The notes under the pieces: model-generated
Told to the model about the DNA's origin: nothing
What the model saw: the letters and a program-made list of their open reading frames with translations, nothing else
The model's database searches: none
Source: Candidatus Methylomirabilota bacterium
Lineage (GTDB): Bacteria > Methylomirabilota > Methylomirabilia > Rokubacteriales > CSP1-6
Length of the DNA stretch: 64,000 nt
Assembly (NCBI GenBank): GCA_035764725.1
Contig: DASTYT010000006.1
Coordinates: 4,833 to 68,832 of the forward strand
Reading direction: 5' to 3'
Shown here: positions 32,494-54,290 of the stretch, piece by piece
How positions within the stretch are numbered: the stretch's first letter is position 1
How the letters are laid out: every line of letters starts with the position of its first letter
Made by a program: the position numbers and the translations under genes

Positions 32494-32627
32494 TGTGGGC
32501 GTCACCCCGCAACGTCCGTGCCACGCCGGCACGCTCGGCGCAGCGCTGATGACGCGGGCACTTAGCAATGGGGTGTGACGCGATGCCGGTTTGACTCGGT
32601 CGCTTGGCCCCGGTAGGGTTCGTCTCC

Positions 32628-33473: not shown

Positions 33474-33685
33474 GCCGCTACGACGTGAACGTGGTGCTGT
33501 ATCGCCTCAAGAAGGATGCGGCGTTCCGCGCGCGCTTCACGCGGGAGCCGGCGGCGGCGCTCGGCCGCGCCGATCTCACCGACGAGGAGCGGGACGCTTT
33601 CGTGCGCTGGGACGTCCGGCGCCTCAACGAGCTGGGCGGGTCACTCCACCTGCTGGTGTCGATCCCGCGCCTGGGCGGGCACTAA
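33470..33685 (+). CDS. LigA-like small subunit (aromatic-ring-opening dioxygenase alpha-subunit domain, 71 aa)
   Basis: VSRYDVNVVLYRLKKDAAFRARFTREPAAALGRADLTDEERDAFVRWDVRRLNELGG resembles the LigA domain. GTG start overlaps the LigB stop. Confidence 0.55.
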   Translation: MSRYDVNVVLYRLKKDAAFRARFTREPAAALGRADLTDEERDAFVRWDVRRLNELGGSLHLLVSIPRLGGH

Positions 33686-36311: not shown

Positions 36312-37150
36312 GTGCGCGACGCCTGCTCGAGGCAGGCGCGGAGTCGCTCCGCCGTCGCGCGCACGTGGTGGGTGATCGCGCTGAGATGACCCCCGGGCAC
36401 GGTGTAGGTCGTCACCCGCGAGCAGATGGACGACCAGCCGAAATCAGGGCGTGGATCCTCCGCGTCCGCGGAGCGGAGGACGACGATGCGGCCGCGGTAG
36501 GGCCCGGGGATGTGACGGAGGACGGCGCGCTTGTAGTGCGCGGCGAGGGGGCTGGGCGTCCGCGGCGGCGGGTCGGGCGCGCCATCGAGGGACGCGGCGA
36601 CGTCCGAGCGTCGGCCCCTGGTAACGATTTTCTTCCGCACGATCACGGCCAGGCCACGCAACCACCCGACCGGCCCGCGCCCACCGGCGGTATCCAGCCG
36701 CCCGCGATAGTAGCGGAGCCAGACCGCGACGTCTTGCGCTCGTATGCGCCAGCGGATCAGCCGGTCGTCGCGATTCGCTGCTGGCACACGCAGCACGGCA
36801 TCGACGGCCCGCGCGAGCGCACCCAGCACACGCACGACCCGGGTGGGAGCGACGGCATCGAGCATGACGACGAGCGGCACTTCCGCGCCGCGCCCGCGCA
36901 GGAGGCGGGCGATCTCGAGCGCTACCAGCGCGCCGTTGCAGTGCCCGCCGAGCAGGTACGGCCCCCTCGGCCGAACCGCCAGGATGTCGGAGAGATGAGT
37001 TGCCGCCATCGCTTCGATGGTGTCGGGTATCGCCTTTCCCTGGAGGCTGTGGGGGTGCACCGCGTAGAACGGCTGCTCCAAGCCCGCCGCTTCCGCGAGC
37101 GCGCGAGTGAAGAATCCGCCTCCGTTGAAGACTCCGTGGCAGAAAAAGAG
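36308..37150 (-). other. Thioesterase domain of NRPS-3 with a GxCxG (Cys) nucleophile motif (Cys codon near 36938-36940); boundaries approximate
   Basis: LFFCHGVFNGGG...GPYLLGGHCNGALVALEIARLL aligns with canonical GPYHLGGWSFGG, with C replacing S. Confidence 0.6.
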
Positions 37151-40100
37151 AGGAGGGTGCGCGCCGGCGGGATTCAGAGCGACCACCGGAGGCTCCGACG
37201 TCGCGACCTCGTCGTCGAGGGCCCGGGCAAGATGCTCGATGGTGGGGCCGGTGAAGAGCGTGGTGAGCGGCACCCGACGGCCCCACTCGCGCTCGACGGC
37301 CGCCATCATCCGCGCGGCGAGGAGGGAGTGGCCTCCGAGATCGAAGAAGCTGTCGCGCACCCCGATCCCGGTGACGCCCAGCAGCTCCTCCCAGAGGTCG
37401 ACGAGCGTCCGCTCCGTGGCGTTGCTGGGCTTCACCCGATGCGCCGGCTCACGCGCTCCTTCCGGATCCGGGGCGGGGAGCGCGGCGCGATCCAGCTTGC
37501 CGTTCGGTGTCAGCGGGAGCGCGGGCAGCACGACGACGGCGCCGGGCACCATGAACGCGGGCAAGGTGAGGCGCAGCGCGCTACGGATCTCGGTCGGCCG
37601 CGGGCTCGCGCCGGGCGCGGGCGCGACGTAGGCGACCAGGCGGTGCGCGTCGGAGTCCTCGCCCTCCATCACCACGACGGCGTCGCCCACCTCGGGGAGT
37701 CGGAGGAGCGCTGCCTCGATCTCGTCCGGCTCGATACGATGGCCGCGCAGCTTGACCTGACGGTCGAGGCGACCCAAAAACTCGACCACGCCGTCGGCCC
37801 GGAATCGCGCCCGATCACCGGTACGATAGAGCCGCGCGCCCGGCGTGGCGTCGAACGGATGCGGCACGAAGCGCTCGGCGGTGAGCTCGGGTCGACCCAG
37901 ATAGCCGTCGGCGAGCCCGGGGCCGCCGATGTAGATCTCTCCGACCACCCCCACCGGCACAGGCTCGCGCCGGTCGTCGAGGATGTAGAGCTCGGTATTC
38001 GCGATGGGCCGGCCGATCGGCACTGTCGAGGCGCCCTCGGCCACCTCGCGCACCTCGTGCCACGTGGCGAAGGTGGTGGTCTCGGTGGGCCCGTAGGCAT
38101 TGATCAGCCGCGCGGGCGGCGCGGCCTGCAGCACCGCGCGCACCCACCGGGGCTCAGCTATCTCCCCGCCGAAAAGGACCTGCCGCAGCGGCCGGAAGGC
38201 ATCTGGCGCTTCCCGCGCCACCTGGTTGAAGAGCGATGTGGTGAGGAAGAGCGTGGTCACGCCCTCGCGCGCGAGCGCGCCGGCGAGGGCCCGCGGGGCC
38301 AGCGCGGTGTCGGGCGGGATCAGGACGAGCCGGGCCCCGTTCAGCAGCGCGCCCCAGATCTCGAAGGTGGCGGCGTCGAACGCGGGGTTGGAGACGTGCG
38401 CCACCACGTCGTCGGGGCCGAGCCGGACGTAGTCGGTGTCGCGCACCAGGCGCGCGATCGCGCGATGCGGCACCGCCACGCCCTTGGGGGCGCCCGTGGA
38501 GCCCGAGGTGTACATCACGTAGGCGAGGTCCGCCCCTCCGAGCGGTAGCCCCTCCGCGGTCGGCGCCTCGAGCCCCTCGCCATCGGACGATTCCAGCCGC
38601 ACCTCGGGGCGGGCGTCGCCGCGTCCCGCTCCCGCGGTCACCACGGCGACCGCGCCCGCGTCGTCGAGCAGCGCGGTGCGGCGCTCCGCGGGGTGGGAGG
38701 GATCGAGGGGCACATAGACGCCGCCCGCGGTCAGCACGCCGAGCAGCGCGACCGCCAGCTCGATGGAGCGGTCGCAGCACACGCCGACGCGCGCGCCGCG
38801 GCCCATCCCGAGGTCTCGCAGCCGGCGCGCCAGGCGGCGGGCGCGTCGTTCCAGCTCCACGTACGTGATTGTCCGCGCGCCATCCGTGACCGCCACCGCG
38901 TCGGGCGTCCGGGCGACGTGCTCGGCGAAGAGCGCCGGGAGCGACCGGTCGGCCGGGTACGGTGAGCGCGTGGCGTTCCACTCCACCAGGACACGGTGAC
39001 GCTCGGCTTCACCGAGGAGCGGCAGCTGCGAGAGGGGGCGATCGGCGTCGCGGGCGATCTCCTGGAGCAGCCGCCCGAATTGGGCGACCAGGTCCTCCGC
39101 AGTGGCGCGGTCGAAGAGCGCGGAGCAGTACTCGAGGGTGCCCCGAAGCCCCTCGGGCGCCTCGACGAGGATCAGCGAGTAGTCGACCTTGGCCGTGCCC
39201 TGGTCGAGGTGGAACGGCGTGATCTCGAGGCCGGCGAGGGCGAGAGGAGTACGGGGCGCGTTCTGCAGCGCCAGGATGGCCTGGAAGACGGGATTGCGGC
39301 TCGCATCGCGCGCTGGGCGGAGCGTCTCCACCAGCCGCTCGAAGGGAACCTCGGCGTTGGCGAAGGCGCCCAGCGCGGTGTCTCGGGTGCGCCGGAGCAG
39401 CTCGCAGAAGGTCGGATCCCCCGCGAGCTCGCCGCGCAGCACCACGGTGTTGGCGAAGAAGCCGATCAGCCCCTCGAGCTCGGTGCGGGGGCGGCCGGCG
39501 ATCGGCGACCCGATCAGGACCTCGTCCTGCCCGGCGTGACGCGCCAGGAGCACCTGGAAAGCCGCGAGGAGCGTCATGTAGAGGGTGGCGCCTTGCCGCC
39601 GCGCGAGCGCGCGGAGCCCCTCGGTGACGTCACGGCTCACCGTGATCGCGACGACGCCTCCCACGAAGCTCTGGACCGCCGGCCGCGGCCGGTCCATGGG
39701 CATCGTGAGCGCCGCCGGCGCGCCGGCGAGCCGCTCCGTCCAGTACGCGAGCTGCGCCTGGAGTTCCGCGCCGCCGAGGCGGTCGCGCTGCCACACCGCG
39801 TAGTCACCGTACTGCAGGGGAAGGGGCGGCAGCGTGGGCGCCCGGCCCGCGCGGAGCGCGGCATAGGCGGTCTCGAGCTCGCGGGCCAGCACGCCCATCG
39901 ACCATCCGTCGGAGATCAGGTGGTGAAGCGTGACGACGAGGAGGTGCTCGTCGTCGCTCCGGCGGAAGAGCCGCGAGCGGATCAGCGGCCCGCGCGCGAG
40001 GTCGAAGACCTGGCTCCCCTCGCGGACGGCCGCGCGCTCGAGCGCCGCGTCGTCGCCGTCGGGCCACGGGTCCACGGGCAGCGCGAACGCCCCGACGGAG

Positions 40101-40438
40101 GTGATGCGCTGACGCGGCTCCCCGTCCTCGACGACGATGCCGGTGCGGAGCGCCTCGTGGCGATGGACGACCACCTCGAAGCTCCGGCGCAGCGCCTCCA
40201 CGTCGAGGCGGCCGCGGAGCCGCGCCGCCAGCGGGATGTGGTACACCGCGCTGTCCGGCACGAGCTGGTGCAGGAACCACAGGCGCTGCTGGGGTGCGGA
40301 GAGCGGCACCGGCGCCGCGGGATCCCGGCGCGGCAGCGCGCTCCGCGTGCCCGGCGCGCCCGCGAGCAGCTTGGCCTCGAGACGCTGGCGCTCCTCGGGT
40401 GTCAGCGTCGACGCCCGGCGTGGCGCCCGCTCGGCCAT
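36308..40438 (-). CDS. NRPS-3: termination module C-A-T-TE
   Basis: C-domain HHxxxDG motif (LHHLISDGWSMGV). A-domain motifs (YTSGSTGAPKGV, GRLDRQVKLRGHRIE). T-domain FFDLGGHSLLA. TE domain with GPYLLGGHCNGALVALE. 1376 aa. Confidence 0.9.
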   Translation of the reverse strand: MAERAPRRASTLTPEERQRLEAKLLAGAPGTRSALPRRDPAAPVPLSAPQQRLWFLHQLVPDSAVYHIPLAARLRGRLDVEALRRSFEVVVHRHEALRTGIVVEDGEPRQRITSVGAFALPVDPWPDGDDAALERAAVREGSQVFDLARGPLIRSRLFRRSDDEHLLVVTLHHLISDGWSMGVLARELETAYAALRAGRAPTLPPLPLQYGDYAVWQRDRLGGAELQAQLAYWTERLAGAPAALTMPMDRPRPAVQSFVGGVVAITVSRDVTEGLRALARRQGATLYMTLLAAFQVLLARHAGQDEVLIGSPIAGRPRTELEGLIGFFANTVVLRGELAGDPTFCELLRRTRDTALGAFANAEVPFERLVETLRPARDASRNPVFQAILALQNAPRTPLALAGLEITPFHLDQGTAKVDYSLILVEAPEGLRGTLEYCSALFDRATAEDLVAQFGRLLQEIARDADRPLSQLPLLGEAERHRVLVEWNATRSPYPADRSLPALFAEHVARTPDAVAVTDGARTITYVELERRARRLARRLRDLGMGRGARVGVCCDRSIELAVALLGVLTAGGVYVPLDPSHPAERRTALLDDAGAVAVVTAGAGRGDARPEVRLESSDGEGLEAPTAEGLPLGGADLAYVMYTSGSTGAPKGVAVPHRAIARLVRDTDYVRLGPDDVVAHVSNPAFDAATFEIWGALLNGARLVLIPPDTALAPRALAGALAREGVTTLFLTTSLFNQVAREAPDAFRPLRQVLFGGEIAEPRWVRAVLQAAPPARLINAYGPTETTTFATWHEVREVAEGASTVPIGRPIANTELYILDDRREPVPVGVVGEIYIGGPGLADGYLGRPELTAERFVPHPFDATPGARLYRTGDRARFRADGVVEFLGRLDRQVKLRGHRIEPDEIEAALLRLPEVGDAVVVMEGEDSDAHRLVAYVAPAPGASPRPTEIRSALRLTLPAFMVPGAVVVLPALPLTPNGKLDRAALPAPDPEGAREPAHRVKPSNATERTLVDLWEELLGVTGIGVRDSFFDLGGHSLLAARMMAAVEREWGRRVPLTTLFTGPTIEHLARALDDEVATSEPPVVALNPAGAHPPLFFCHGVFNGGGFFTRALAEAAGLEQPFYAVHPHSLQGKAIPDTIEAMAATHLSDILAVRPRGPYLLGGHCNGALVALEIARLLRGRGAEVPLVVMLDAVAPTRVVRVLGALARAVDAVLRVPAANRDDRLIRWRIRAQDVAVWLRYYRGRLDTAGGRGPVGWLRGLAVIVRKKIVTRGRRSDVAASLDGAPDPPPRTPSPLAAHYKRAVLRHIPGPYRGRIVVLRSADAEDPRPDFGWSSICSRVTTYTVPGGHLSAITHHVRATAERLRACLEQASRT

Positions 40439-43400
40439 CAGCCCGAAGCCCCGGCGGAGGGCCCCAGCCGCGCTGCGATGTGGGCCGCCACCGCGGCGAC
40501 GGTAGGTGCCTCGAGGAACTGGTTCAGCGGCACGGTGACGCCCAGCGCATCGGCCATGTGCGCCGCCGCGACCGCCGCCTGCAACGAGTCGCCGCCCAGC
40601 GCCACGAAATCGTCGGCCACGCCGACCGGGCGACCGAGCACGCCGCTCCAGACCTTGGCCACCTGGGCTTCGATGGCGGTGAGCGCGGGTGCGGCGGACC
40701 CGGACCCCGTCGGCGTCTCCGGGCGGCTGAGGGCGGCGGCCAGCTCCCGGCGCTCGGGCTTGCCGGTGGCGCCGAGGGGAATCGAATCCACGAAGGCGAG
40801 CTGACGGGGCACCTTGAACGCCGCAAGGCGATCACTCACGAAGCGCCGGATGTCCGCCTCGGTCGCGCACGAGCCCGGTCGCAAGACGAGCGCAGCGGCC
40901 ACGTCCTCGCCGAGGGTCGGGTGCGGGACGGAGAAGGTGACGGCGCGCGCCACCGCGGGGTGCGCGACGAGCACGTCGTCCACCTCGCGCGGCGAGATCT
41001 TCTCGCCGCCGCGGTTGATCATCTCCTTGATGCGGCCGGTCACGTAGAGATAGCCGTCGGCATCGAAGCGGCCGAGATCGCCGGTCCGATACCAGCCGTC
41101 CCGGAAGGCGGCCGCATTGGCGGCGGAATCGTTCTCGTATCCCGTCATCACCGTCTTGCCGCGCACCTGGATCTCGCCGACCTCGCCCGTTCGCGTCGCG
41201 CCGCCGTCCTCGTCGACGATGGCGACCTCCCCGGTGACGGGGCGCCCCACCGAGCCGGCCCGCCGCTCGCCCGGCGGGAGGGGATTCGAGGTGACGAGCA
41301 TGCAGGACTCGGACTGCCCGTAGCCCTCGATCACGGGCACGCCGAGCCGACGCTCGAGCTCGGCCATGAGGGCCGGAGGGAGCGGCGCCGCCGAGGAGCG
41401 GATGAAGCGCAGCGCGTGCCCCGCCACCACGTGCGGGTGCTGCGGGGCTTCGGCCACGATGGCCTGATGAATCGTCGGCACCGCCGAGTACCAGGTGGGC
41501 CGCGTCGCCTCCATCCAGTCGAAGACGGCGGTGGGATCGAACGCGGGGGTGCAGATCACGCTCGCGCCGGCGGCCAGCGAGGTCAGCACGACCATCAGGC
41601 CCTGGACATGGAACAGTGGCATCACGCCGAGGGCGCGATCGTTCGGGCGCAGCGCATAGGTCTGCACGAAGCCCTGGATCGCGGCGGCCATGTTGGCGTG
41701 AGTGAGCGGGACCACCTTGGGCCGCGCGGTGGTGCCCGACGTGTGGATGGCGAGCGCGACGTCGTCCGGGCGCGGACTGTTGACGGGACTTGGCGTCGCG
41801 GGGAGGTGAGGTCCCAGCGCGAAGCGACCGGCCCCCCCGGGTCGCGGCTCGACCTCCAGCAGCGGCAGGCCGAGGCGCGCGGCCACGACACGGGCGGCGG
41901 GGGCGGCCCCGGCGGGCACCATGACCGCGCCCACCCGGGCCGTGGTGAGATACCGCTCGAGCTCCGGCTCGCGATACGCGGGATTCAGCGGTACCGCGGT
42001 GGCTCCGAGCGCCACCGCGACGAAGGCGACGGCCAGCTGCGGGCCCTGCGGCATGATCAGGGCGATCCGGTCGCCTCGTCCGAGCCCCCACGTCGCGAGC
42101 ACCGCGAGGACCTCGTCCACCTGGGTGAGGAGATCGCGGTAGCAGAGCGGCGCCGCGCCGGGCGCGGTGATGGCCGGCGCATCGGGCGCGCGAAGCGCCT
42201 GCGCCTCGATCAGGGTGCGCAGAGTCGGCGCGGCCACGGGCATCGCATCCGCGGTGGGTGTGCCCTCGGCGGCCGGATCGTCCTTCAGCTGTCCCTCGAG
42301 GATCGCCTCGGCCAGATTGGACAGGATCGGGGCCTCGAAGATCCGGCGCAGCGGGACGTCGACGCCGAGCCGCTCGCGCAGCCGCGAGGCGAGGCGGGCG
42401 GCGAGCAGTGAATGGCCGCCGATCGCGAAGAAGTCGTCGTGGCGTCCGATCTCGGTCACGCCCAGCAGCTCGGTCCACATCTGCGCCAGCGCCTGCTCGA
42501 GCGGCGTGGCGGGCGCCTCGCGCATCGCCGTCCGCAGGAGATCGTGCTCGCCCGGGTCGGGCAGGGCCCCGCGGTCGACCTTACCGTGAGGGGTGAGCGG
42601 CAGCGCGTCCAGCGTGACGACAGCTCGGGGAATCATCGGCACCGGCAGCTGCTCGGCGAGGAAGTGGCGCAGGGTCTCGCGATCGAGCCGGGCCTCGGGC
42701 CGGAGCACGACCCAGGCGGCGAGATAGCCGTCGCCGGCGTCCTCGCGGACGGTGACGACGGCCTCGCGCACCGCGGGATGCCCCGCGAGCACCGCCTCCA
42801 CTTCGCCGAGCTCAACCCGCATGCCACGGAGCTTGACCTGATGATCGAGACGGCCGAGGTACTCGAGGACGCCGTCGGCGCGCCACCGGGCGCGATCGCC
42901 CGTCCGGTAGAGCCGCGCCCCCGACTCGGGGCTGCGGGGGTCCGGCACGAAGCGCTCCGCCGTCAGCTCCGGGCGGTTGAGATAGCCGCGCGCGAGCCCC
43001 ACGCCGCCGAGATGAAGCTCGCCGGCCACGCCCGGAGGCACCGGCTGTCCCGACGCGTCGAGCACCCACGCGCGCATGCCCGCGATGGGCCGGCCGATGG
43101 GAACGCTGGTCTCGCCGCCCCCGCAGCGCCACCACGTTGCGTCGATCGTCGCCTCGGTCGGGCCGTAGAGATTGATCAGCTCCACCGGCAGGCGCGCGAG
43201 ACACCGCTCGGCCAGCTCGCCGGTCAGGGCCTCGCCGCCGCAGCACACCCGGCGCAGCACGCGCGCCCCATCGAGCCCGGGCTCGTCCAAGAGCGCGCGC
43301 AGCAGCGACGGTACGAGCTGCAGCACGGTGATCTCCTGCTCGGCGAGGACGCGTGCGAGCTCGCCGGGGTCGCGATGAGCTCCCGCGGGGCCGATGACCA

Positions 43401-45447
43401 GGCGCGCGCCCGCCAGCAGCGGCGCCCAGAACTCCCAGACCGATGCGTCGAAGCCGATCGGGGTGCGCTGGAGGACGGCATCGGCCTCGGTGAGGGGGAG
43501 CGTGTCTGCCATCCAGCGCATGTGGTTCACGATGGCGCGATGGGGGATCATCACGCCCTTGGGACGGCCGGTGGAGCCGGACGTATAGAGGATGTAGGCG
43601 AGCGCCTCGGGCTCGGCGTCGGGCTCGAGCGCCTCGGCCGCTGTCCGCGCAATCTCCTCGGCATCGGTGGAGGGGCAGACCACGCGGACGCCGGACTCGG
43701 CGAGCCGCGGGCCCAGCGCGGCGTCGGTGATCACCACCGGCGCGGTCGCGTCCGCGAGCATGAAGCGCAGGCGCTCCGTGGGGAGAGCCGGATCGAGGGG
43801 CAGGTATGCCCCGCCGGCCTTGAGCACGGCATAGAGCGCGACGGGGAGATCGAGCGACGGGCCCATGCAGACGCCCACGGGCACGTCGGGCCCCACGCCG
43901 AGCACGCGGAGATAGCGCCCGAGCGCGCCCGCCCGAGCCTCGAGCTGCCCGTAGGTGAGGGTGTCGCGCCCCGCGACCACCGCCACCGCGTCAGGGGAGG
44001 TCGCCGCGCGCGCTGCGACGAGGCGGTGCAAGCACGCCTTCGGGGCCTCCGCCGGCGCGGTCTCCGCGGAGGCGCCGCTCCAGGACTCGAGGCGCGCCGT
44101 CTCCTCGGCGGTCAGCAAGGGGAGCTCCGAGAGGCGCCGGTCGGGATCGGTCACCGCGCCCTCGAGGAGCCGCGTGAAGTGGGCGAGCAGCCGCTCGATG
44201 GTCGCGCCGTCGAAGAGGTCGGTGCTGTAGTCCGCAATGAGCTGGAGCCCCGTCGCGCTTTCCACCGCCGTCAGGGAGAGGTCGAACTTCGCCGTCCCGT
44301 TTCGCGCCCGCAGCGGCGTGGCGGTGAGCCCGGAGAGGCGAGGCATTCCGGAGAGTGCGGCCTCCTGCAGCACCAGCATGACCTGCACGATGGGCGAGCG
44401 GTCGCGGCGGCGCTCGGGCGCCAGCGCAGCGACCAGGCGCTCGAAGGGCAGCTCCTGATGCCCCAGGGCCTCGCGGGACACGCGCGACGCTTGACGCAAG
44501 AGCTCCCGGAATGTCGGATCGCCGTCGAGCGCCATCCGTAGGGGCAGCGTGTTGACGAAGTAGCCGATCAGCGGCTCGACTTCGCGCAGGATCCGGCAGG
44601 CGCTGGCCGTTCCCACGACGAGATCGGTCTCGCCGGTGTAGCGGTGCAGGAGCGCCTGGAAGGCGGCGAGCAGCACCGCGAAGGGGGTCACGCGCTCGGC
44701 CCGTGCGAGCGCCCTCACCACGCTCACGTGCTCGGACGGCAGGAGTCGCGTGCACTGATTTCCGCCGTCGCCCAGCTCGGCGGGGCGCGGGTGGTCGGTG
44801 GGCAGCGCGAGGGCAGGCGGCGCTCCCGCCAGCTGTTGGCGCCAGTAGCTGATCTCGTCGGCGAGCCGTTGCCCGGCCAGCCGGGCGCGCTGCCACGCGG
44901 CGTGATCCGCGTACTGCACGGGCAGCGGCGGCAGCGTGGCGATGTCGCCCGTGACCGCCGCCGAGTAGTGCGCCTCGAGCTCACGCATGAGCACGCCCAC
45001 GGACCAACCGTCAGAGGCGATGTGGTGGAGGACGAGGAGCAAGGCGTGCTCGCGTTCACCCAGCCGCGCGACGAGGGCCCGCAGCATGAGGTCGCACGTG
45101 AGGTCGAACGAACGGCGGGCCTCCGCGGTGAGCTGGGCTTCGAGAGCCGCCTCGCGGGCGTCTTCGGGCAGGCCCGTGAGATCCACGTACGTCACCTCGA
45201 CGGGTCTGGGTGGCCCGACCATCTGCACGGGCTCTCCGTCGGTCTCGTGGAAGGTCGTGCGCAGAGCCTCGTGGCGCGCCACGATCGCGGTGAGCGCGCT
45301 CTCGAGCGCGGTGAGGTCGAAGTCGCCGGCGAGGCGGAACGCCTTGCCCATGTTGTAAGCGGGCGAGCCGGGGCGCAGGCGGTCCACGAGCCAGAGCTGC
45401 TGCTGCGCGAAGGAGAGCGGGGAGGGCGGGCGACTGGCGAGACTCAT
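40438..45447 (-). CDS. NRPS-2: C-A-T followed by an in-line AMP-binding (AAE3/MatB-like acyl-CoA-ligase-type) domain and a second carrier domain (C-A-T-AL-T)
   Basis: The real start MSLASRPPSPLSFAQQQLW overlaps the NRPS-1 stop (ATGA at 45444-45447). The 432 upstream codons of the track ORF are out-of-frame readthrough of NRPS-1. Motifs: LHHIASDGWS, YTSGSTGRPKGV, FFAIGGHSLLA, then HTSGTTARPKVV...MPLFHVQGL...MINRGGEKISPREVDD, then FVALGGDSLQA. Confidence 0.85.
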   Translation of the reverse strand: MSLASRPPSPLSFAQQQLWLVDRLRPGSPAYNMGKAFRLAGDFDLTALESALTAIVARHEALRTTFHETDGEPVQMVGPPRPVEVTYVDLTGLPEDAREAALEAQLTAEARRSFDLTCDLMLRALVARLGEREHALLLVLHHIASDGWSVGVLMRELEAHYSAAVTGDIATLPPLPVQYADHAAWQRARLAGQRLADEISYWRQQLAGAPPALALPTDHPRPAELGDGGNQCTRLLPSEHVSVVRALARAERVTPFAVLLAAFQALLHRYTGETDLVVGTASACRILREVEPLIGYFVNTLPLRMALDGDPTFRELLRQASRVSREALGHQELPFERLVAALAPERRRDRSPIVQVMLVLQEAALSGMPRLSGLTATPLRARNGTAKFDLSLTAVESATGLQLIADYSTDLFDGATIERLLAHFTRLLEGAVTDPDRRLSELPLLTAEETARLESWSGASAETAPAEAPKACLHRLVAARAATSPDAVAVVAGRDTLTYGQLEARAGALGRYLRVLGVGPDVPVGVCMGPSLDLPVALYAVLKAGGAYLPLDPALPTERLRFMLADATAPVVITDAALGPRLAESGVRVVCPSTDAEEIARTAAEALEPDAEPEALAYILYTSGSTGRPKGVMIPHRAIVNHMRWMADTLPLTEADAVLQRTPIGFDASVWEFWAPLLAGARLVIGPAGAHRDPGELARVLAEQEITVLQLVPSLLRALLDEPGLDGARVLRRVCCGGEALTGELAERCLARLPVELINLYGPTEATIDATWWRCGGGETSVPIGRPIAGMRAWVLDASGQPVPPGVAGELHLGGVGLARGYLNRPELTAERFVPDPRSPESGARLYRTGDRARWRADGVLEYLGRLDHQVKLRGMRVELGEVEAVLAGHPAVREAVVTVREDAGDGYLAAWVVLRPEARLDRETLRHFLAEQLPVPMIPRAVVTLDALPLTPHGKVDRGALPDPGEHDLLRTAMREAPATPLEQALAQMWTELLGVTEIGRHDDFFAIGGHSLLAARLASRLRERLGVDVPLRRIFEAPILSNLAEAILEGQLKDDPAAEGTPTADAMPVAAPTLRTLIEAQALRAPDAPAITAPGAAPLCYRDLLTQVDEVLAVLATWGLGRGDRIALIMPQGPQLAVAFVAVALGATAVPLNPAYREPELERYLTTARVGAVMVPAGAAPAARVVAARLGLPLLEVEPRPGGAGRFALGPHLPATPSPVNSPRPDDVALAIHTSGTTARPKVVPLTHANMAAAIQGFVQTYALRPNDRALGVMPLFHVQGLMVVLTSLAAGASVICTPAFDPTAVFDWMEATRPTWYSAVPTIHQAIVAEAPQHPHVVAGHALRFIRSSAAPLPPALMAELERRLGVPVIEGYGQSESCMLVTSNPLPPGERRAGSVGRPVTGEVAIVDEDGGATRTGEVGEIQVRGKTVMTGYENDSAANAAAFRDGWYRTGDLGRFDADGYLYVTGRIKEMINRGGEKISPREVDDVLVAHPAVARAVTFSVPHPTLGEDVAAALVLRPGSCATEADIRRFVSDRLAAFKVPRQLAFVDSIPLGATGKPERRELAAALSRPETPTGSGSAAPALTAIEAQVAKVWSGVLGRPVGVADDFVALGGDSLQAAVAAAHMADALGVTVPLNQFLEAPTVAAVAAHIAARLGPSAGASG
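40680..42300 (-). other. In-line ANL-superfamily domain of NRPS-2 (oxalate/malonate-CoA-ligase-like); boundaries approximate
   Basis: TSGTTARPK, PLFHVQGL and INRGGEKISPREV motifs resemble the AAE3/MatB clade rather than NRPS A-domains (compare YTSGSTGRPKG in the same proteins). Confidence 0.55.
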
Positions 45448-48400
45448 GCCGTCACCTCCGCCGCGACGGCGTGGGCGAGCGCGGCTCGATCCGGCTTGCC
45501 GGCGGGCCCGCGGGGGATCTCGCTCACGAGCAGGATGTGCCGCGGCACCTTGAACGCCGACACGCGCTCGGCGGCGAACCGGCGCAGGTCGGTGGGCATC
45601 AGCGCGGCGCCGTCCACCAGCACCACCGCGGCCGCGACGTCCTCGCCGAGCGTGCGGTGCGGGACGCCGAAGGTCACCGCTTCGCGCACTGCCGGATGGG
45701 CAAGCAGGATCTCCTCGACCTCGCGCGGCGCGACCTTCTCGCCGCCGCGGTTGATGATCTCCTTGAGCCGGCCCGTGATGAAGAGAAAGCCGTCCGCGTC
45801 GAGGTGGCCGAGGTCGCCGGTGCGATACCAGCCGTCGTGAAAGCTCGCCGTGGTGGTCCCGGGATCGTCCTCGTAGCCAGCCATGACGTTGACCCCACGC
45901 ACGAGGATCTCGCCGCGGCTCCCCGGGGCAAGCGGGCGGCCGTCGGGATCGATGATCGCGATCTCGGGGCCCGCGCTCACCCCCGCGGATCCCGTCTTGC
46001 CGGCGCCCCGTGCCAGCGGCGTCACCGCCACGAGGGTGGCCGTCTCGGTCTGGCCGTAGCTCTCGATGACGGGCGCGGCGAAGAGCCGCTCCATCTCCTC
46101 GCGCAGCCGCGGAGGCAGCGCGGACGAGGCGGAGCGGACGAAGCGGAGGCCGACGCGCGCGGCAATCGGGGCGGCGCTCCCCCGCTCCAGGGCGGCCTGG
46201 CCGAGTATGCCTTGATGGACGGTCGGCGTGCCATTCACCCAGGTCGGGCGGGTCTCGTCGAGCCATGCGAAGACGTGGGCTGCCTCGAAGCGCGGCGGGC
46301 ACACCACGGCGGATCCGGCCCCGAGTGAGGCGATGAGCATCATGAGGCCGTTGACGTGGAAGAGTGGCATGAGGTCGAGGCAGCGGTCGCCGGGCCGAAG
46401 CGCCAGCGCCTGCCGGTGCCCCCGTGCGGAGGCGAGGATCTGGCGGTGGCTCAAGGGCACCCGCTTCGGCCGCGCGGTGGTGCCGGACGTCAGGAGCACC
46501 AGGGCGATGTCGTCGTGGCCCCGTGCGGCCGGAGCGGCCCCCGTGGCGGGCAGGGGCAGGTCCAGCGCGATGGCGCCCGCAGGCCCCGCCGACGCGCTCT
46601 GGATCGCGATCGCGGGCAGCCCTCGCCGGCGCGCCACCCCGAGGGCGGGAGCACCGGCGGGGGCGAGGAGGGCGTCGAGCGGCGTGGTCGCGAGGATCGC
46701 CTCGATTTCGGGCGGGGGCGCCGCGGGATTCAACGGCACGCACACCGCCGCCGCTGCCACCGCGAGGATCGCGACCGCCGCCTCCGGTCCCTGCGGCGCC
46801 ACGATCGCGATGCGCGCGCGGCCACCCAGCCCCGCTCCAGCGAGTCGCTGCGCCGTATCGTCGACGTGGGCCAGCAGGTCCCGATACGAGAGAGGCGTCC
46901 GCCCCGGCGCGACGATCGCCGCCGCGGTCGGCGCGTGGCGCGCGTGTGCCTCGAGGAGGTCGCGGAGCGTCGAGGCCTCGTCCGCGGATGGTGCGTCCGC
47001 CTCGTCGTCGCGGTCCCCGCGCTCGCCTGCCCCGCCGAGCCCCTCGGGGCTGGCCTCGATCTCGAGCAGGGCGAGGGCCAGGTCGGCGATGGTCGAGTTG
47101 TCGAAGATCTGGCGGAGCGGGATCTCGACACCGAGACGGTCGCGCAGGCGCGCCACCAGCCGGGCGGCGAGGAGCGAATGGCCGCCGAGATCGAAGAAGT
47201 CGTCGAGGATGCCGATCCGGGCGGCTCCCAGCACGTCCGACCAGATCTCGACCAGCATGGCCTCGAGGGGCGTGCGGGCCGCCACATGGGCGGGTGCGCC
47301 GACGGCATCATCGGGCCCCGGCGCGGGAAGCGCGTCGCGGTCCAGCTTGCGATTGGCGGTGAGGGGCAGCGCGGACATGGGCACGAACGCCGCGGGCACC
47401 AGATGAGCGGGGAGGAGCTGACGCGCGAATTGCCGGAGGGCCGCGCGGTCGACCGCCGCGGCGCCGTGCGCCACCACGTAGGCGGCGAGGCGCTGATCGC
47501 CGGGGTGGGGCTCCCACGGCAACACCGCGACCTCGCGGACGGCGGGGTGCTGACGCAGCACGCTTTCCGCCTCGCCGGGCTCGGTGCGGATGCCGCGGAT
47601 CTTGATCTGTCGATCGATGCGCCCCAGGAAGTCGAGCGTGCCGTCGGCACGGGCCCGCGCGAGGTCGCCGGTCTTGTAGAGCCGGCCGCCGGCCGCGTGA
47701 GGATCGGCCACGAAGCGCGCCGCGCTGAGGGCGGGATCGCCCATGTAGCCCGATGCCACGCCGACGCCGCCGATGTAGAGCTCGCCGGGCACGCCGGCCG
47801 GCACGGGGCCGAGCGCCGCATCGAGGATGAGCGCCGACACGCCGGCGATGGGCCGTCCGATCGGCACCGCGCCCTCGGCCTCGGGGGCCGTGTCGACACG
47901 ATGGAACGTGCAGGTCATCGTACACTCGGTAGGCCCGTACTGGTTGACGAAGGCCGCATGCGGGCAGAGATGCCGTATCGCGCGGCGCACGTCGTCGTAC
48001 AGGAGCGGCTCGCCCGTGGTCAGCACGAGCCGCAAGGTGGACGCGGCGAGCCCGCGATCCTCGGCGGCGCCGGTGAGGGGCCGCAGCACCGACGGGACAA
48101 GCGCGAGCAGCGCGGTCGCCTCGTGGGCTCGCAGCCGCTCGAGGATGGCCTCCGGGTCCGCGGCCTCGCCGTCCCGCAATAGCACGACGCGCGCGCCCAC
48201 GGCGAGGGGGGCGAAGAACTCGCGCACCGAGGCGTCGAAGGACGCGCGCGCGAGCTGGAGGACCACGTCGGTGGATCGCAGCCCGAACGTCTCCGTGAGG
48301 AACTCGAGATAGCTCAGCACGGCCCGGTGGACGATCGGTACGCCCTTCGGGACGCCGCTCGAGCCCGACGTGAACGCGACATAGGCCAGGTCATCGAGCC

Positions 48401-51400
48401 CCGGACGCGGGAGTGACGCGCCGTCGTCGCCGGTCCCCGGCATCGCGTCCCGGTCGAGGCAGAGCGTGGGATGTCCCTGGCTCGTGCAGCGGGACTCCAG
48501 ATCGGATCGGGTCAGGACACAGCACGCATCGACGGTCTGGAGGATGTGACCGAGGCGGGTCGCCGGCTCGTCGGGGTCCAGGGCCACGTAGGGCGCGCCC
48601 GCACGCATCACGCCGAGGAGCGCCGCCACCAGGTCGGGAGAGCGCCCGAGACACACGCCCACCGGCCGGCCGGGTCCGGCGCCGCGGGCGCGGAGGAGCC
48701 GCGCGAGATGCTGGGCGCGCGCGACGAGCGCCGCGTAGGTGAGGGATGCCTCGCCCTGTACCACCGCGATCGCCTCGGGGGTACGCATGCCCTGGGCTTC
48801 GACGAGGGCGGGCACGCTGGGCGCCCGCGGAGCCGGCGCGTGGGGACCGCGACCGCGGGCGACGAGCGTCGCGCGCTCGGGCGCGGGCACCAGCGAGATC
48901 TCGTCGAGCCGGCGGTCAGGGTCGGCGGCGGCATGCTCGAGCACTGACGCGAACTGGGCGAGCAAGGCGGTCATGGTCTCGGGCTCGAAGAGGTCCGTGT
49001 CGTACGTGAGCGAGCCGCTGATTCCCGCCGCTGACTCGTCGAGGCCCAGGTTGAGGTCGAACTTCGCCCCCCCGCCGAAGAGTCCCATCGGCGTGAGGGA
49101 GAGCCGATCGAGCCGGAGCGGCGAGGCGGGCTGATTGTGCAGATTGATGAAGGCGGTCACGATGGGCGCGGTGGGCCCGCCGCGGTTCGGCCGCAGCGCC
49201 TCGACGAGCTTCTCGAACGGCAGCTCCTGATGGGCGTAGGCGTCGAACGCAGTGGCCCGCACTCGCGCGAGGAGCTCCCGGAAGGTCGGCCGGTTCGCGC
49301 AATCCACCCTGAGCACGAGGGTGTCGAGGAACAGACCGATGAGGCCTTCGGTCTCCGGTCTCGAACGGCTGGCCATCGGGGCGCCGATGAGAAGATCGGT
49401 CTGGGCCGTGCGCCGGTGCAGGAGCAGCGAAAAGCCGGCGAGGAGGGTCATGAACAGCGTGGCGCCCTCGCGCCGGGCCAGCGCACGCAGCGCCGCCGCC
49501 ACACCCGGGGACAGCGCGAACGGCAGTCGCCTGCCGCGGCCGCGCGGCCGCGCGGGCCGCGGATGGTCCGTGGCGAGGGCAAGCGAGGGCGGTGCGCCGG
49601 CCAGGCGCGCGCGCCAGTGGGTGAGAAGCGGCTCGAGGGCGCCCCCCTCCATCCGCTCCCGCTGCCACGCCGAATAGTCGGCGTACTGGATGGCGAGCGG
49701 TGGCGCCGTGGGGCGGCGCCCGGCCAGGGCGGCGCGATAGCCCGCGGAGAGCTCTCGCGCGAACACATCCATCGACCACCCATCGCTCATGATGTGGTGC
49801 ATCGTGGCGAGGAGGACGTGTTGCTCGGCACCGAAGCGCAGGAGGCGGCAGCGCCAGAGGGGCCCGTGCTCGAGGTCGAAGTGGCGGTGGGCCTCCTCGG
49901 CGGTGAGCCGGTCCGCCTCGAGCTCGCGCGCGGCGGCATCGAGCGGCTCGAGATCCGTGGCCTCGAACGGGACGCTCAGACGGGGCGCCACGCTCTGCCA
50001 CGCGCGTCCGTCACGGCCGACCAGCGACGTGCGCAGGATCTCGTGCCGCTCGGTGAGCCACTCGAGCGCGTGGGCCAGCGCGCCCGCGTCGAGGGGGCCG
50101 GTGATGCGCCAGCCGGTCGCAATGTTGTAGTCGGAGCGCCCGGGATCCAGCTGATCGAGGAACCAGAGCCGCTCCTGGGCGAACGAGGCCGGGAAGAGAT
50201 CGCCCGTCCCGGAGCGAGGCAAGCGGGGGATGGGGGCGACGGCGGGCCGCAGCGTCACGTCGCGCGGCGCGCTCTCGATCGCGTGGGCGAGCCCGGCGAC
50301 GGTGGGGCGCTCGATGAAAGCGGGCAGCGAGATATCGACGTCCCACGCCGTGCGGACGCGGGCAAGCACGAGGGCAGCGAGCAGCGAGTTGCCTCCGAGA
50401 TCGAAGAAGTCGTCCTCGACCCCCACGTCGTCGACGCCGAGCACGGCGGCCCACACCCGGGCGATCTCGTTTTCCCGGGGCGTCCGGGGGGCCAGCCGCG
50501 TCGTCGGGCCGGACTCGGCGCGGCCCGCGAGAGGTAGAGGCAGGGCGCGGCGGTCGATCTTGCCATTGCCGTCCACGGGTAGGCGATCGAGGACGATCAA
50601 GGCGGAGGGCACCATCACGTCGGGGAGCCGTGGCGCGAGGGCGCGTCGGAGCTCGCTCGCGTTGAGGGTCCGGGTAAGCTGCGGGACCAGGTAGGCGACG
50701 AGCCGCGCCGCGCCCGGCTCGTCCTCGCGTACGAGCACGACCGCCTCGGCTACCCCGGAAAGGGCGAGCAGCGCGGCCTCCACCTCCGCGACCTCGACCC
50801 GTTGCCCGCGCACCTTGCTATGCCCGTCGCGCCGACCGAGCATCTCGAGCATCCCGTCCGCGCGGAGACGGCCGAGATCGCCGGTCCGATACAGGCGCGT
50901 GTCCGGCCGGCCGGGCTCCGCGACGAAGCGTGCCGCGGTGAGCGCGGGTTGCTTCCAGTAGCCCATGGCGAGGTACGCGCTGCGCACTGCGATCTCGCCC
51001 GTCTCGCCGGCCGCGACCGGGCGGCCGCCCTCGTCGAGCAGCACGACCTCCATGTCCTCCACCGGAGCGCCGATCGGCACCACGCCCTCGGGAACGGGCT
51101 CGCGCGCGGCAAAGAAGAACTGGCGCACGAGGCCGCACTCCGTCGCCCCGAGCCCGTTGACGAGCACGCAGTCAGGCCCGAAGCGCTCACGGAACAAGGC
51201 GAGGTCGCTCGGGGTCGCGCGATCGCCCTCGAGTCGGACCACGCGGAGGGCAGGCAGAGGGCGCCCGGAGCCGGCCGCCAGGCGGAAGAGCGCGGGCACC
51301 GAGTGATAGATGGTGATGGCCTCGGCGGCGAGCCATTCGGCGATGCGCTGCCCGCCGTCGCGCGCCACGTCGAAGGGGAAGACGGCGGCGCCGTTCAGCA

Positions 51401-54242: not shown

Positions 54243-54258
54243 CGGGGTCGGGACCGCC

Positions 54259-54290
54259 CGTGACCAAAGTCCCCGTGACCAAGGTCCAAT
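54259..54290. promoter_or_regulatory. Tandem copies of CCGTGACCAARGTCC ending in GACCAAGGTCCAAT; the last ATG of the motif is the start codon chosen for the downstream receiver gene
   Basis: Seen directly: cccgtgaccaaagtccccgtgaccaaggtccaATG. The same 14-mer recurs at 56911-56924. Confidence 0.5.

What the first reader, a model, noticed from the sequence alone, without database searches (positions are those of the whole stretch)
40680..47050. Two in-line ANL domains of the oxalate/malonate-CoA-ligase (AAE3/MatB-like) type embedded in the NRPS assembly line; one has no carrier domain
The C-terminus of NRPS-1 (about 45447-47050) and a region of NRPS-2 (about 40680-42300) are about 500-aa AMP-binding domains. 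Their motifs TSGTTARPK(R/V)V, MPLFHV(N/Q)GL, (I/M)INRGGEK(V/I)(A/S)PREV(E/D) and AAFKVPR differ from the bona fide NRPS A-domain motif YTSGSTGRPKG in the same proteins. They resemble small-dicarboxylate acyl-CoA ligases such as oxalyl-CoA synthetase and malonyl-CoA synthetase. Architecture is A-T-C-A-T-AL | C-A-T-AL-T | C-A-T-TE. The NRPS-1 AL ends 3 aa before the stop with no T domain, while the NRPS-2 AL is followed by its own T domain. This is not a canonical colinear layout (AL-T normally sits at an N-terminal loading position). It suggests incorporation of an oxalyl/malonyl-like or other unusual acyl unit, in-trans loading, or a branching or termination step.
Basis: partly seen in the sequence, partly recalled or inferred. 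Interest (0 to 1): 0.8.

Follow-up and report, generated by a model that had tools for sequence, protein, structure and literature searches.

The report
Mid-line acid-activating domains in an NRPS
A peptide-making enzyme line from an uncultured soil bacterium (Methylomirabilota/Rokubacteria) carries two extra, intact acid-activating domains of the oxalate-CoA-ligase family wedged between a carrier domain and the next condensation domain, a conserved layout I found no description of, and its chemistry is still unknown.

Summary
Three translationally coupled minus-strand genes encode A-T-C-A-T-AL1 | C-A-T-AL2-T | C-A-T-TE.

- **Family:** AL1 and AL2 are full ANL domains. Their closest solved relatives are plant oxalyl-CoA synthetases (E 1e-92 and 1e-110, against about 1e-50 to 1e-66 for MatB and FadD13). 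They are not NRPS amino-acid A domains.
- **No hidden carrier:** AL1 has no carrier of its own, and this is not a frameshift. NRPS-2 starts at an ATGA overlap preceded by a Shine-Dalgarno-like GGAGG. Five further distinct sequences have the same junction. Three short-form contigs (two nearly identical) fuse AL directly to a C domain in one ORF (A-T-C-A-T-AL-C-A-T-TE).
- **Selection:** Both ALs are under purifying selection like their neighbouring domains (dN/dS 0.21-0.34).
- **Substrate:** Oxalate or malonate is not supported. The oxalate-pocket residues H216, M314 and H319, kept in 94% of the closest bacterial relatives, are replaced in both ALs. The replacements are invariant among orthologs.
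- **Origin:** The relatives are mostly N-terminal AL-T starter didomains in front of C-A-T(-TE).

Best reading: these are recruited starter-type ligases, re-tuned to another small polar acid, that feed an acyl unit to the C domain just downstream (mid-line initiation or insertion). In-line acylation of the tethered intermediate is the main rival. This is a new variant of a known kind, and the mechanism is unproven.

The parts
45444..52100 (-). NRPS-1 gene (2218 aa): A_1a-T_1a-C_1-A_1b-T_1b-AL1
   Evidence: ORF list and Pfam; GC3 0.90; orthologs L085, L086, L087
50526..52025 (-). A_1a, starter adenylation domain lacking Asp235 (code SGSHREGLVK; LGATE instead of YGPTE)
   Evidence: Alignment to GrsA-PheA. 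The A_1a code is the same in all 6 orthologs, with a gap at one position in L089
47316..48815 (-). A_1b adenylation domain, code DARALTQMTK (Arg at position 239)
   Evidence: DVRALTQMSK or DVRALAQMSK in the short forms
47046..47285 (-). T_1b carrier (GGHSL), about 20 aa upstream of AL1
45447..46985 (-). AL1: AAE3-family ANL domain at the C-terminus of NRPS-1, with no carrier of its own. Pocket signature HVN/AS/GQ/TAT/K
   Evidence: PDB 6qjz E 2.5e-92; pocket; dN/dS 0.26-0.34
45444..45462 (-). Gene junction: SD-like GGAGG, then the ATG of NRPS-2 overlapping the TGA of NRPS-1 (ATGA)
   Evidence: same stop-then-C junction in L083, L084, L085, L087
40438..45447 (-). NRPS-2 gene (1669 aa from ATG 45447): C_2-A_2-T_2a-AL2-T_2b
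   Evidence: orthologs L085, L087, P0358
42538..44037 (-). A_2 adenylation domain, code DAWQCGLIDK (one residue from the Gln code DAWQFGLIDK, which I recall from memory)
42280..42513 (-). T_2a carrier (GGHSL)
40738..42231 (-). AL2: AAE3-family ANL domain, pocket signature HVQ/SA/GQ/SCM/K. Missing, in frame, from the close relative L084
   Evidence: PDB 5ie0 E 4e-110
40441..40701 (-). T_2b carrier after AL2, with the GGDSL motif typical of AL-T starter carriers
36308..40438 (-). NRPS-3 gene (1376 aa): C_3-A_3(DAFFLGATFK)-T_3-TE
35484..36311 (-). Sfp/HetI-type phosphopantetheinyl transferase. A homolog overlaps or directly follows the TE-encoding gene in every ortholog contig that extends past it
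33682..35487 (-). SBP_bac_5 (NikA/Opp/CntA-like) solute-binding protein next to the cluster; also present in L082, L089 and L090

Best explanation
**What they are.** AL1 and AL2 are catalytically intact ANL (acyl-activating) domains maintained by selection. They descend from a large bacterial family related to oxalyl-CoA synthetase. The usual job of that family in NRPSs is to act as an N-terminal AL-T starter didomain that hands a small acyl unit to the first C domain.

**Where they sit.** In this Methylomirabilota clade the ligase has been built into the middle of the line, always immediately upstream of a C domain. The conserved core is T-AL-C (AL1; the only AL in the short form). AL2 is a second, optional copy that kept a starter-type carrier (T-AL-T-C).

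**What they activate (inferred).** Their acyl pocket has been re-tuned away from oxalate. They most likely adenylate another small polar carboxylic acid from primary metabolism.

**What they do with it (inferred).** They most likely pass the acid as an acyl donor to the next C domain. AL2 would do so through T_2b. AL1 would use the adjacent T_1b or CoA. Each AL+C pair would then introduce an extra, non-amino-acid unit mid-line, by secondary chain initiation or by insertion if the acid carries an OH or NH2 group.

**Shown:** identity, integrity, conservation, architecture, the pocket change, and the optional nature of AL2.
**Inferred:** the substrate class, which thiol accepts the acyl group, and how the unit joins the upstream chain.
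For: **Family**
- Best solved relatives are oxalyl-CoA synthetases, full length, E 1e-92 and 1e-110.
- Best NCBIfam model is FadD7-type, below its cut-off.

**Integrity**
- P-loop, YGQTE/YGQSE, YRTGD, GRxKExINRGGEK and the A10 Lys are all present.
- dN/dS is 0.26-0.34 for AL1 and 0.21-0.25 for AL2, against 0.15-0.36 for the A and C domains.

**Ancestry as starters**
- Among the 120 best homologs of AL1: 50 AL-T, 22 AL-T-TE, 47 stand-alone, and T-AL only in the two orthologs.
- Among 124 ALs in proteins from 50%-identity clusters, 114 are N-terminal and followed by T, mostly as AL-T-C-A-T(-TE).
- GTDB loci L002, L006, L027, L049 and L060 show AL-T in front of C-A-T.

**AL always precedes C**
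- Window, L083-L087, and the short form L089-L091, which is one ORF A-T-C-A-T-AL-C-A-T-TE with 4 adenylating domains but 3 carriers.

**T_2b is starter-like**
- T_2b has GGDSL, as do 61 of 72 AL-T carriers. The starter carrier T_1a has GGNSL or GGDSL. The elongation carriers all have GGHSL.

**Pocket**
- H216/S289/M314/H319/K500 are kept in 183 of 194 close relatives.
- AL1 reads N/S/Q/T and AL2 reads Q/A/Q/M. These are invariant across orthologs down to 59% identity for AL1 and 74% for AL2.

**AL2 is dispensable for an open reading frame**
- L084 (91-96% identical) lacks AL2 cleanly and keeps T_2a-T_2b.

**Precursor supply**
- Only a PPTase and a solute-binding protein are consistently adjacent. 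No precursor-supply genes are conserved, which fits a primary-metabolite acid.

**Precedent**
- The icosalide synthetase shows a second chain initiation in mid-line (PMC6553374).
Against: - No biochemical data exist for any member of this clade.
- AL1 has no carrier of its own. Its neighbour T_1b has the elongation-type GGHSL motif and must also carry the growing chain.
- With a single C domain after each AL, the upstream peptidyl donor and the AL-derived acyl donor would compete for one acceptor amine. That conflict disappears only if the acid carries a nucleophile and the C domain acts twice. Icosalide uses two C domains for this.
- A classifier for C domains that follow AL-T could not separate C_2 and C_3 from C_1, and it is confounded by lineage.
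- Tandem AL arrays without intervening carriers (P0352, P0354, P0355) show that carrier-less ALs in this family may act on free intermediates instead.
Confidence: 0.42

Rival explanations
1. In-line tailoring. The AL sits in the slot an epimerisation domain normally occupies (T-AL-C). It uses its acyl-adenylate to acylate a nucleophile (N-terminal or side-chain NH2 or OH) on the intermediate held by the upstream carrier. No carrier or C domain of its own is needed. T_2a and T_2b act as tandem carriers around AL2.
For: - T-AL-C is the conserved core, and AL1 is about 20 aa from T_1b.
- Loss of AL2 in L084 leaves a plain tandem-T module with an intact frame, as expected for an optional decoration.
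- ANL enzymes that form amides directly from acyl-AMP are known (my own knowledge: McbA, CfaL, aminocoumarin ligases).
- This model avoids the problem of two donors competing at one C domain.
Against: - The predicted residues upstream of the ALs offer no obvious nucleophile. A_1b has Arg239 in its code and A_2 has a Gln-like code.
- T_2b carries the starter-type GGDSL motif. The whole family otherwise loads carriers.
- No ANL domain is known to acylate a carrier-bound substrate in cis.
Confidence: 0.25
2. Condensation-free elongation or re-activation. The AL acts on a carboxylate of the intermediate itself. This could be a side-chain carboxylate of an acidic residue loaded by A_1b or A_2, or a released peptidyl acid. 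The AL re-tethers or ligates it, as the later members of tandem AL arrays may do.
For: - Both ALs follow modules whose codes suggest acidic or amide residues (Arg239 in A_1b; Gln/Glu-like A_2). The hydrophobic module A_3 has no AL.
- Carrier-less ALs with diverged pockets follow a canonical first AL in P0352, P0354 and P0355.
Against: - The pocket changes are modest polar swaps (H to N/Q, M to Q, H to T/M). They are not the small-residue substitutions that would open a tunnel for a peptidyl substrate.
- The correlation rests on three modules.
- A doubly tethered intermediate would need an extra hydrolase, and none is conserved in the cluster.
Confidence: 0.12
3. One reading: the ALs activate oxalate or malonate and the product carries oxalyl or malonyl units.
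For: - Closest solved relatives are oxalyl-CoA synthetases.
- AL1 keeps Ser289.
- The wider AL-T family keeps the full oxalate pocket.
Against: - His216, Met314 and His319 are replaced in both ALs, and Ser289 also in AL2. PMC8905533 names Ser289 and His319 as the oxalate-specific contacts.
- The replacements are fixed across orthologs.
- The MatB model scores far below its cut-off.
- No oxalate-handling genes lie nearby. The TPP enzyme is pyruvate-oxidase-like, and the CoA-transferase is below all cut-offs.
Confidence: 0.1
4. Decaying remnant, assembly artefact, or frameshift hiding a carrier domain.
For: - One noisy long-read contig (L082) shows a T after AL1.
- L084 has lost AL2.
Against: - The same architecture occurs in six distinct sequences for the stop-then-C junction (window, L083, L084, L085/L086, L087, plus L001, where AL1 ends its protein with no T). 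The in-frame AL-C fusion occurs in L089 and in L090/L091.
- dN/dS matches the neighbouring domains and all core motifs are intact.
- The junction has an SD-like site and an ATGA overlap.
- L082's extra T is an 89-91% copy of its own T_1b. It is followed by an exact 41-nt copy of an internal AL1 segment, so it is a lineage-specific duplication or a misassembly.
Confidence: 0.03

Closest known systems
Oxalyl-CoA synthetase AAE3 (Arabidopsis 5IE0/5IE3; Lathyrus 6QJZ)
   Same: Full-length ANL fold match, 36-41% identity, all core motifs. The INRGGEK(I/V)(S/A)P(R/I)EV and FKVP motifs are shared.
   Different: AAE3 is a stand-alone CoA ligase. The oxalate-contact residues His216, Met314 and His319 (and Ser289 in AL2) are replaced here. 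These domains are embedded in an NRPS, next to carrier and C domains.
Uncharacterised bacterial AAE3-like AL-T starter modules (AL-T-C-A-T(-TE), AL-T-TE, AL-T-hexapeptide-transferase), e.g. loci L002, L027, L060; proteins P0014, P0027, P0072
   Same: 49-59% identity. AL is followed by a carrier with GGDS and then a C domain. AL2-T_2b-C_3-A_3-T_3-TE reproduces this unit exactly.
   Different: Those ALs are N-terminal and keep the oxalate-type pocket. Here the AL is mid-line behind another carrier. AL1 has lost its carrier, and the pocket is changed.
Icosalide synthetase IcoA (dual-priming NRPS), PMC6553374
   Same: A second acyl unit enters in the middle of a single assembly line.
   Different: IcoA uses an embedded chain-initiating C domain next to an LCL domain and takes the acyl group from a fatty-acyl thioester. 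Here an adenylating ligase is embedded and only one C domain follows it.
N-terminal acyl-ligase (AL/CAL/FAAL)-carrier loading modules of NRPS/PKS (e.g. PvdL, mycosubtilin, rifamycin loading; my own knowledge)
   Same: An ANL domain activates a non-amino-acid carboxylate for an assembly line.
   Different: Those sit at the N-terminus and always have their own carrier. They belong to other ANL subfamilies (FAAL or aryl-acid types).
Malonyl-CoA synthetase MatB (3NYQ, 4FUT)
   Same: ANL ligase for a small dicarboxylate; detectable homology.
   Different: A much weaker match (E 1e-43 to 1e-66; NF005702 243-291 bits against a cut-off of 558).

Membership tests
ANL superfamily (AMP-binding PF00501 + AMP-binding_C PF13193) | Both Pfam domains and core motifs A3 (P-loop), A5, A7, A8 and the A10 Lys | tested here: met
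   Pfam counts three AMP-binding stretches in NRPS-1 and two in NRPS-2, each with a C-terminal subdomain. The motifs are read directly in the translation.
Oxalate-CoA ligase (AAE3 / oxalyl-CoA synthetase) | Closest overall sequence relationship to characterised oxalyl-CoA synthetases | tested here: met
   6qjz and 5ie0 are the top PDB hits, with E 1e-92 (AL1) and 1e-110 (AL2). These are 40 or more orders of magnitude better than FadD13 or MatB.
Oxalate-CoA ligase (AAE3 / oxalyl-CoA synthetase) | Oxalate-contact residues Ser289 and His319 (plus pocket residues His216 and Met314), as defined for AtAAE3 (PMC8905533) | tested here: not met
   AL1 reads N216/S289/Q314/T319 and AL2 reads Q216/A289/Q314/M319. 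By contrast 183 of 194 close relatives keep H/S/M/H.
Oxalate-CoA ligase (AAE3 / oxalyl-CoA synthetase) | Stand-alone enzyme that forms a CoA thioester | not testable with these tools
   The domains are embedded in NRPS proteins. Whether AL1 uses CoA or a carrier thiol needs an assay.
NRPS amino-acid adenylation domain (TIGR01733) | Score above the curated cut-off, and Asp235 to bind the alpha-amino group | tested here: not met
   TIGR01733 scores 194 bits against a cut-off of 317.4 for AL1. The bona fide A domains score 347-414. The position aligned with Asp235 is Val in both ALs.
Malonyl-CoA synthetase (MatB, NF005702) | Score above the curated cut-off | tested here: not met
   243 bits (AL1) and 291 bits (AL2) against a cut-off of 558.
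FadD7-family fatty acid-CoA ligase (NF004511) | Score above the curated cut-off of 650 bits | tested here: not met
   It is the best NCBIfam model, but scores only 393 and 419 bits.
Fatty acyl-AMP ligase (FAAL) | [quoted passage not shown] | tested here: not met
   The alignments to AAE3 run without any such insertion through the hinge region. Domain length is about 500-513 aa, against 514 aa for AAE3.
AL-T loading (starter) module of an NRPS | AL followed by its own carrier and then a C domain | tested here: met
   Met for AL2: AL2-T_2b(GGDSL)-C_3. Not met for AL1: no carrier follows AL1 in the window, L083-L087 or L001, nor the single AL of the short forms L089-L091.
AL-T loading (starter) module of an NRPS | N-terminal position at the start of the assembly line | tested here: not met
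   AL1 follows T_1b at residues 1706-2218 of NRPS-1. AL2 follows T_2a at residues 1073-1570 of NRPS-2.
Dual-priming NRPS (icosalide type) | An embedded chain-initiating C domain directly after an elongating C domain | tested here: not met
   Only one C domain follows each AL. C-domain subtype could not be resolved.

The most novel reading that the evidence does not exclude
The T-AL-C unit is a new kind of NRPS step. An ANL domain with no carrier and no condensation partner of its own uses the upstream carrier's cargo or thiol. It would either attach a small acid to the tethered intermediate directly from the acyl-adenylate, or extend the chain on the same carrier before the normal C domain takes over. 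That would be adenylate-driven, C-independent bond formation inside an assembly line.
Probability: 0.3. Interest if true: 0.8.

Novelty: new variant of a known kind. Interest (0 to 1): 0.62.

Why it matters
NRPS logic is normally written with A, T and C domains plus a short list of tailoring domains. This unit is an adenylating ligase placed between a carrier and the next C domain. It is conserved and under selection, and I found no description of it in the searchable literature.

The clade offers natural variants that act as ready-made controls:
- a short form that is a single ORF of about 10.8 kb;
- a long form with a second AL-T;
- a close relative that lacks AL2.

Solving the chemistry would show how non-amino-acid units can be inserted mid-chain. 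It would also add a part for assembly-line engineering.

The work also flags the large parent family of AAE3-like AL-T starters that keep an intact oxalate-type pocket. For this family too I found no described product. Finally, it adds a concrete gene cluster from Methylomirabilota/Rokubacteria, a phylum from which I know of no isolated natural product (my own knowledge).

Tried and rejected
1. **Frameshift or hidden carrier after AL1: rejected.** Based on the junction DNA and on independent contigs with the same junction.
2. **L082's carrier after AL1 as the ancestral state: rejected.** It is an 89-91% copy of L082's own T_1b, followed by an exact 41-nt AL1 fragment, in a contig full of frame breaks.
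3. **GTDB genome scan: no close relative found.** The best hit was 46-50% identical.
4. **C-domain typing: inconclusive.** A paired-HMM test separates held-out classes, and a 7-nearest-neighbour test was also run. Both place C_1 and C_2 on the "follows AL-T" side and leave C_3 ambiguous. C_1 follows a normal A-T, and the classes differ in lineage, so I treat this as inconclusive. Raw identity also gave no separation.
5. **Oxalate metabolism in the neighbourhood: not found.** The TPP enzyme is pyruvate-oxidase-like and not oxalyl-CoA decarboxylase. The family III CoA-transferase is below every cut-off.
6. **Conserved accessory genes that might name the acid: none.** Only the PPTase and an SBP_bac_5 protein recur. 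LigB and TauD are shared only with the syntenic L082.
7. **Literature searches: no precedent found.** Searches for oxalyl or AAE3-like ligases in NRPSs, internal CAL domains and N-oxalyl products found none.
8. **Structure prediction: not run.** The tools return no coordinates, so pocket or CoA-site geometry could not be measured, and the fold is already clear from sequence.

Full report
**1. What is there**

The window has about 72% G+C. Its RpoD (60908-62773) is 100% identical to one from a Methylomirabilota MAG, and the next group of hits, at about 89%, includes several named Candidatus Rokubacteria. The source is therefore an uncultured soil bacterium of that phylum.

Three minus-strand genes form one operon-like block:
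- NRPS-1, 52100..45444, 2218 aa: A-T-C-A-T-AL1.
- NRPS-2, from the ATG at 45447 to 40438, 1669 aa: C-A-T-AL2-T.
- NRPS-3, 40438..36308, 1376 aa: C-A-T-TE.

An Sfp/HetI-type PPTase (36311..35484) and an SBP_bac_5 solute-binding protein (35487..33682) follow. The long GTG-started ORF listed as 40438..46743 overlaps NRPS-1 in another frame. The real start of NRPS-2 is the ATG at 45447. It overlaps the TGA of NRPS-1 (ATGA) and sits six bases after GGAGGTG.

**2. What the two domains are**

- *Closest structures.* AL1 (about 45447-46985) and AL2 (about 40738-42231) match plant oxalyl-CoA synthetases best, over their full length. PDB 6qjz and 5ie0 give E 2.5e-92 for AL1 and 4e-110 for AL2. FadD13, MatB and 4CL follow at 1e-53 to 1e-66.
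- *Curated models.* The best NCBIfam model is the FadD7 family, below its cut-off. The NRPS A-domain model TIGR01733 scores 194 bits against a cut-off of 317.4, whereas the true A domains in the same proteins score 347-414.

So these are ANL ligases of the AAE3 type and not amino-acid A domains. All catalytic motifs, including the A10 lysine, are intact.

**3. Not an artefact, and AL1 really has no carrier**

Public metagenomes hold relatives of the whole cluster. Domain maps show the following:
- L085/L086 (83% identical in AL1; the two are identical at protein level) and L087 (66%) have the same A-T-C-A-T-AL | C-A-T-AL-T | C-A-T-TE. A stop follows AL1, and the C domain starts 15-18 nt later.
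- L083 (82%) and L084 (91%) share that junction.
- L001 (68%, gene order rearranged) also ends its NRPS-1 at AL1.
- L089, and the nearly identical L090 and L091 (59-61%), encode one ORF of about 3600 aa: A-T-C-A-T-AL-C-A-T-TE. AL is joined to the C domain by a linker of about 35 residues. Pfam counts 4 adenylating domains, 3 carriers, 2 C domains and 1 TE.
- L089 lies at the same chromosomal locus as the window cluster, with dnaG-rpoD on one side and the SBP on the other.

One noisy long-read contig, L082, has a carrier after AL1. That carrier is an 89-91% copy of L082's own T_1b and is followed by an exact 41-nt copy of an internal AL1 segment. I read it as a lineage-specific duplication or a misassembly. 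The copy has changed GGHSL to GGDSL.

Nei-Gojobori dN/dS between the window and L084, L085 and L087 is 0.26-0.34 for AL1 and 0.21-0.25 for AL2. The A and C domains give 0.15-0.36. Both ALs are under ordinary purifying selection.

**4. Where they came from**

Beyond the orthologs, identity drops to about 50% and the hits form a very large bacterial family.
- Of the top 120 hits to AL1, 50 are AL-T, 22 AL-T-TE and 47 stand-alone proteins of about 507 aa. T-AL occurs only in the two orthologs.
- In a search of 1.84 billion cluster representatives, 114 of 124 mapped ALs are N-terminal and followed by a carrier, mostly as AL-T-C-A-T(-TE).
- GTDB loci show the same starter use in Gemmatimonadota, Terriglobia, Brocadiaceae and cyanobacteria.
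- Rare exceptions: C-AL-T elongation-type modules (P0356, P0463), tandem arrays AL-AL-T-C and AL-AL-T-TE, and AL-AL-AL-AL-T-C-A-T-TE (P0352; Pfam counts 5 adenylating domains and 2 carriers).

AL1 and AL2 are only 53% identical to each other, no closer than each is to the family. AL2's nearest outside relative is an AL-T protein, P0014, at 57-59%. T_2b has the GGDS motif seen in 61 of 72 AL-T carriers, whereas the elongation carriers T_1b, T_2a and T_3 have GGHSL in every ortholog. AL2-T_2b-C_3-A_3-T_3-TE therefore looks like an intact copy of the common starter system, placed behind another module.

**5. Substrate**

For AtAAE3 the oxalate pocket is V215-H216, C288-S289, A313-M314, H319 and K500. 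Ser289 and His319 are described as conserved only among oxalyl-CoA synthetases (PMC8905533).
- H216/S289/M314/H319/K500 are all present in 183 of 194 close bacterial relatives, and in 84 of 124 of the more diverse representatives.
- AL1 reads N/S/Q/T/K and AL2 reads Q/A/Q/M/K.
- These signatures are invariant in every AL1 ortholog (59-91% identity) and every AL2 ortholog (74-87%).

The changes are polar swaps of similar size and do not open the pocket. I infer that both ALs still take a small acid but no longer oxalate, and that AL1 and AL2 probably take different acids. No oxalate-handling genes and no precursor-supply genes are conserved nearby. This points to a primary metabolite.

**6. Context of the line**

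The Stachelhaus codes are conserved across orthologs:
- A_1a: SGSHREGLVK. It has no Asp235, so the starter is probably not an alpha-amino acid.
- A_1b: DARALTQMTK. Arg at position 239 hints at an anionic or polar side chain.
- A_2: DAWQCGLIDK. This is one residue from the Gln code as I recall it.
- A_3: DAFFLG(A/V/L)TFK, hydrophobic.

L084 is 91-96% identical to the window across the shared domains and lacks AL2 through a clean in-frame loss. It keeps T_2a-linker-T_2b. AL2 is therefore not needed to keep the line open.

**7. Mechanism**

- *Shown:* the AL always sits directly upstream of a C domain. Its ancestors deliver an acyl donor to exactly such a C domain. AL2 kept a starter-type carrier and AL1 did not.
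- *Main inference (confidence about 0.4):* each AL activates a small polar acid and supplies it to the following C domain. AL2 does so through T_2b, and AL1 through T_1b or CoA. Extra non-amino-acid units would thus enter mid-line. The precedent for a second initiation inside one synthetase is icosalide (PMC6553374), but that enzyme uses two C domains.
- *Open problem:* one C domain would face two donors. This is resolved only if the acid carries a nucleophile and the C domain acts twice, or if nested products are made.
- *Main rival (about 0.25):* the AL is a tailoring domain in the slot an E domain normally occupies, acylating the tethered intermediate straight from the adenylate.
- *Third option (about 0.12):* the AL activates a carboxylate of the intermediate itself. 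The carrier-less, pocket-diverged later members of tandem AL arrays suggest this.
- *Other readings:* oxalyl or malonyl incorporation is about 0.1, and a remnant or artefact about 0.03.

**8. Novelty and verdict**

Acyl-ligase domains in NRPSs are known, but as N-terminal loaders with their own carrier. A conserved T-AL-C unit, and an AL-T didomain inserted behind another carrier, were not found in the literature available here.

I rate this a new variant of a known kind, with interest 0.62. The finding is real and cleanly delimited. It has natural short, long and AL2-less variants that make it directly testable. Its chemistry is not yet established.

Noticed in passing
window 50526-52025 (-): The starter adenylation domain A_1a lacks the alpha-amino-binding Asp235 (code SGSHREGLVK, LGATE in place of YGPTE). 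The code is the same in all six orthologs, with a gap at one position in L089. The line probably starts with something other than an alpha-amino acid.
   Followed up: partly
L084:7251-7832 compared with window 40441-42513: A close relative (91-96% identical across the shared domains) has lost AL2 cleanly and in frame, leaving two carriers in tandem (C-A-T-T). It is a natural AL2 knockout.
   Followed up: yes
L089:4985-15667, L090:3-10802, L091:813-11630: A short form of the cluster is one ORF, A-T-C-A-T-AL-C-A-T-TE. L089 sits at the same chromosomal locus (dnaG-rpoD side and SBP side) as the window cluster.
   Followed up: yes
P0352 (3462 aa), P0354, P0355: Other members of the AL family form tandem arrays with no carriers between them (AL-AL-AL-AL-T-C-A-T-TE, AL-AL-T-TE, AL-AL-T-C). 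The first AL keeps the oxalate-type pocket and the later ones have diverged pockets.
   Followed up: partly
P0356 (6043 aa), P0463 (2283 aa): In two other NRPSs, an AL with the canonical oxalate-type pocket occupies the A-domain position of an elongation module (C-AL-T). That would need a nucleophile on the loaded unit, so it is doubtful that this pocket always means oxalate.
   Followed up: no
Loci L002, L006, L027, L049, L060 and the about 50%-identical protein hits listed: There is a very large, phylogenetically broad family of AAE3-like AL-T starters (AL-T-C-A-T-TE, AL-T-TE, AL-T-hexapeptide acyltransferase). 94% of the closest members keep an intact oxalate-type pocket. I found no described product for this family.
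   Followed up: partly
L082:4431-4730, 6261-6560, 5895-5935, 6584-6624: In a noisy long-read contig, the carrier upstream of AL1 is duplicated after AL1 (89% DNA identity) with GGHSL changed to GGDSL. An exact 41-nt copy of an internal AL1 segment follows. This is either a real rearrangement or a misassembly.
   Followed up: partly
window 52276-54726 (+): A GAF histidine kinase and a LuxR-type response regulator lie divergently upstream of NRPS-1 in the window, L085 and L087. A second receiver-domain gene is also present in the window and L085. They are absent from the short-form locus L089 and may regulate the cluster.
   Followed up: partly
window 59567-63980 (-): The housekeeping genes dnaG and rpoD, a zinc-ribbon coiled-coil protein and RNase H flank the cluster. 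RpoD is 100% identical to that of a Methylomirabilota MAG (contig of 70,976 bp), which identifies the source organism.
   Followed up: yes
window 36365-48182 (+), e.g. 40294-42411, 42412-44541, 46356-48182: Long ORFs on the strand opposite the NRPS genes fail the G+C codon-position filter used. They are the usual spurious frames of high-G+C DNA and not genes.
   Followed up: yes
window 17552-33473: A mixed set of metabolic genes lies on the other side of the cluster. It includes LigB-type extradiol dioxygenase, a pyruvate-oxidase-like TPP enzyme, 3-methyladenine glycosylase, TauD-family dioxygenase, enoyl-CoA hydratase, an ABC importer, STAS-metallo-beta-lactamase, DapA-like aldolase, SDR, family III CoA-transferase and an amidohydrolase. 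LigB and TauD are syntenic in L082. No link to the NRPS was established.
   Followed up: partly
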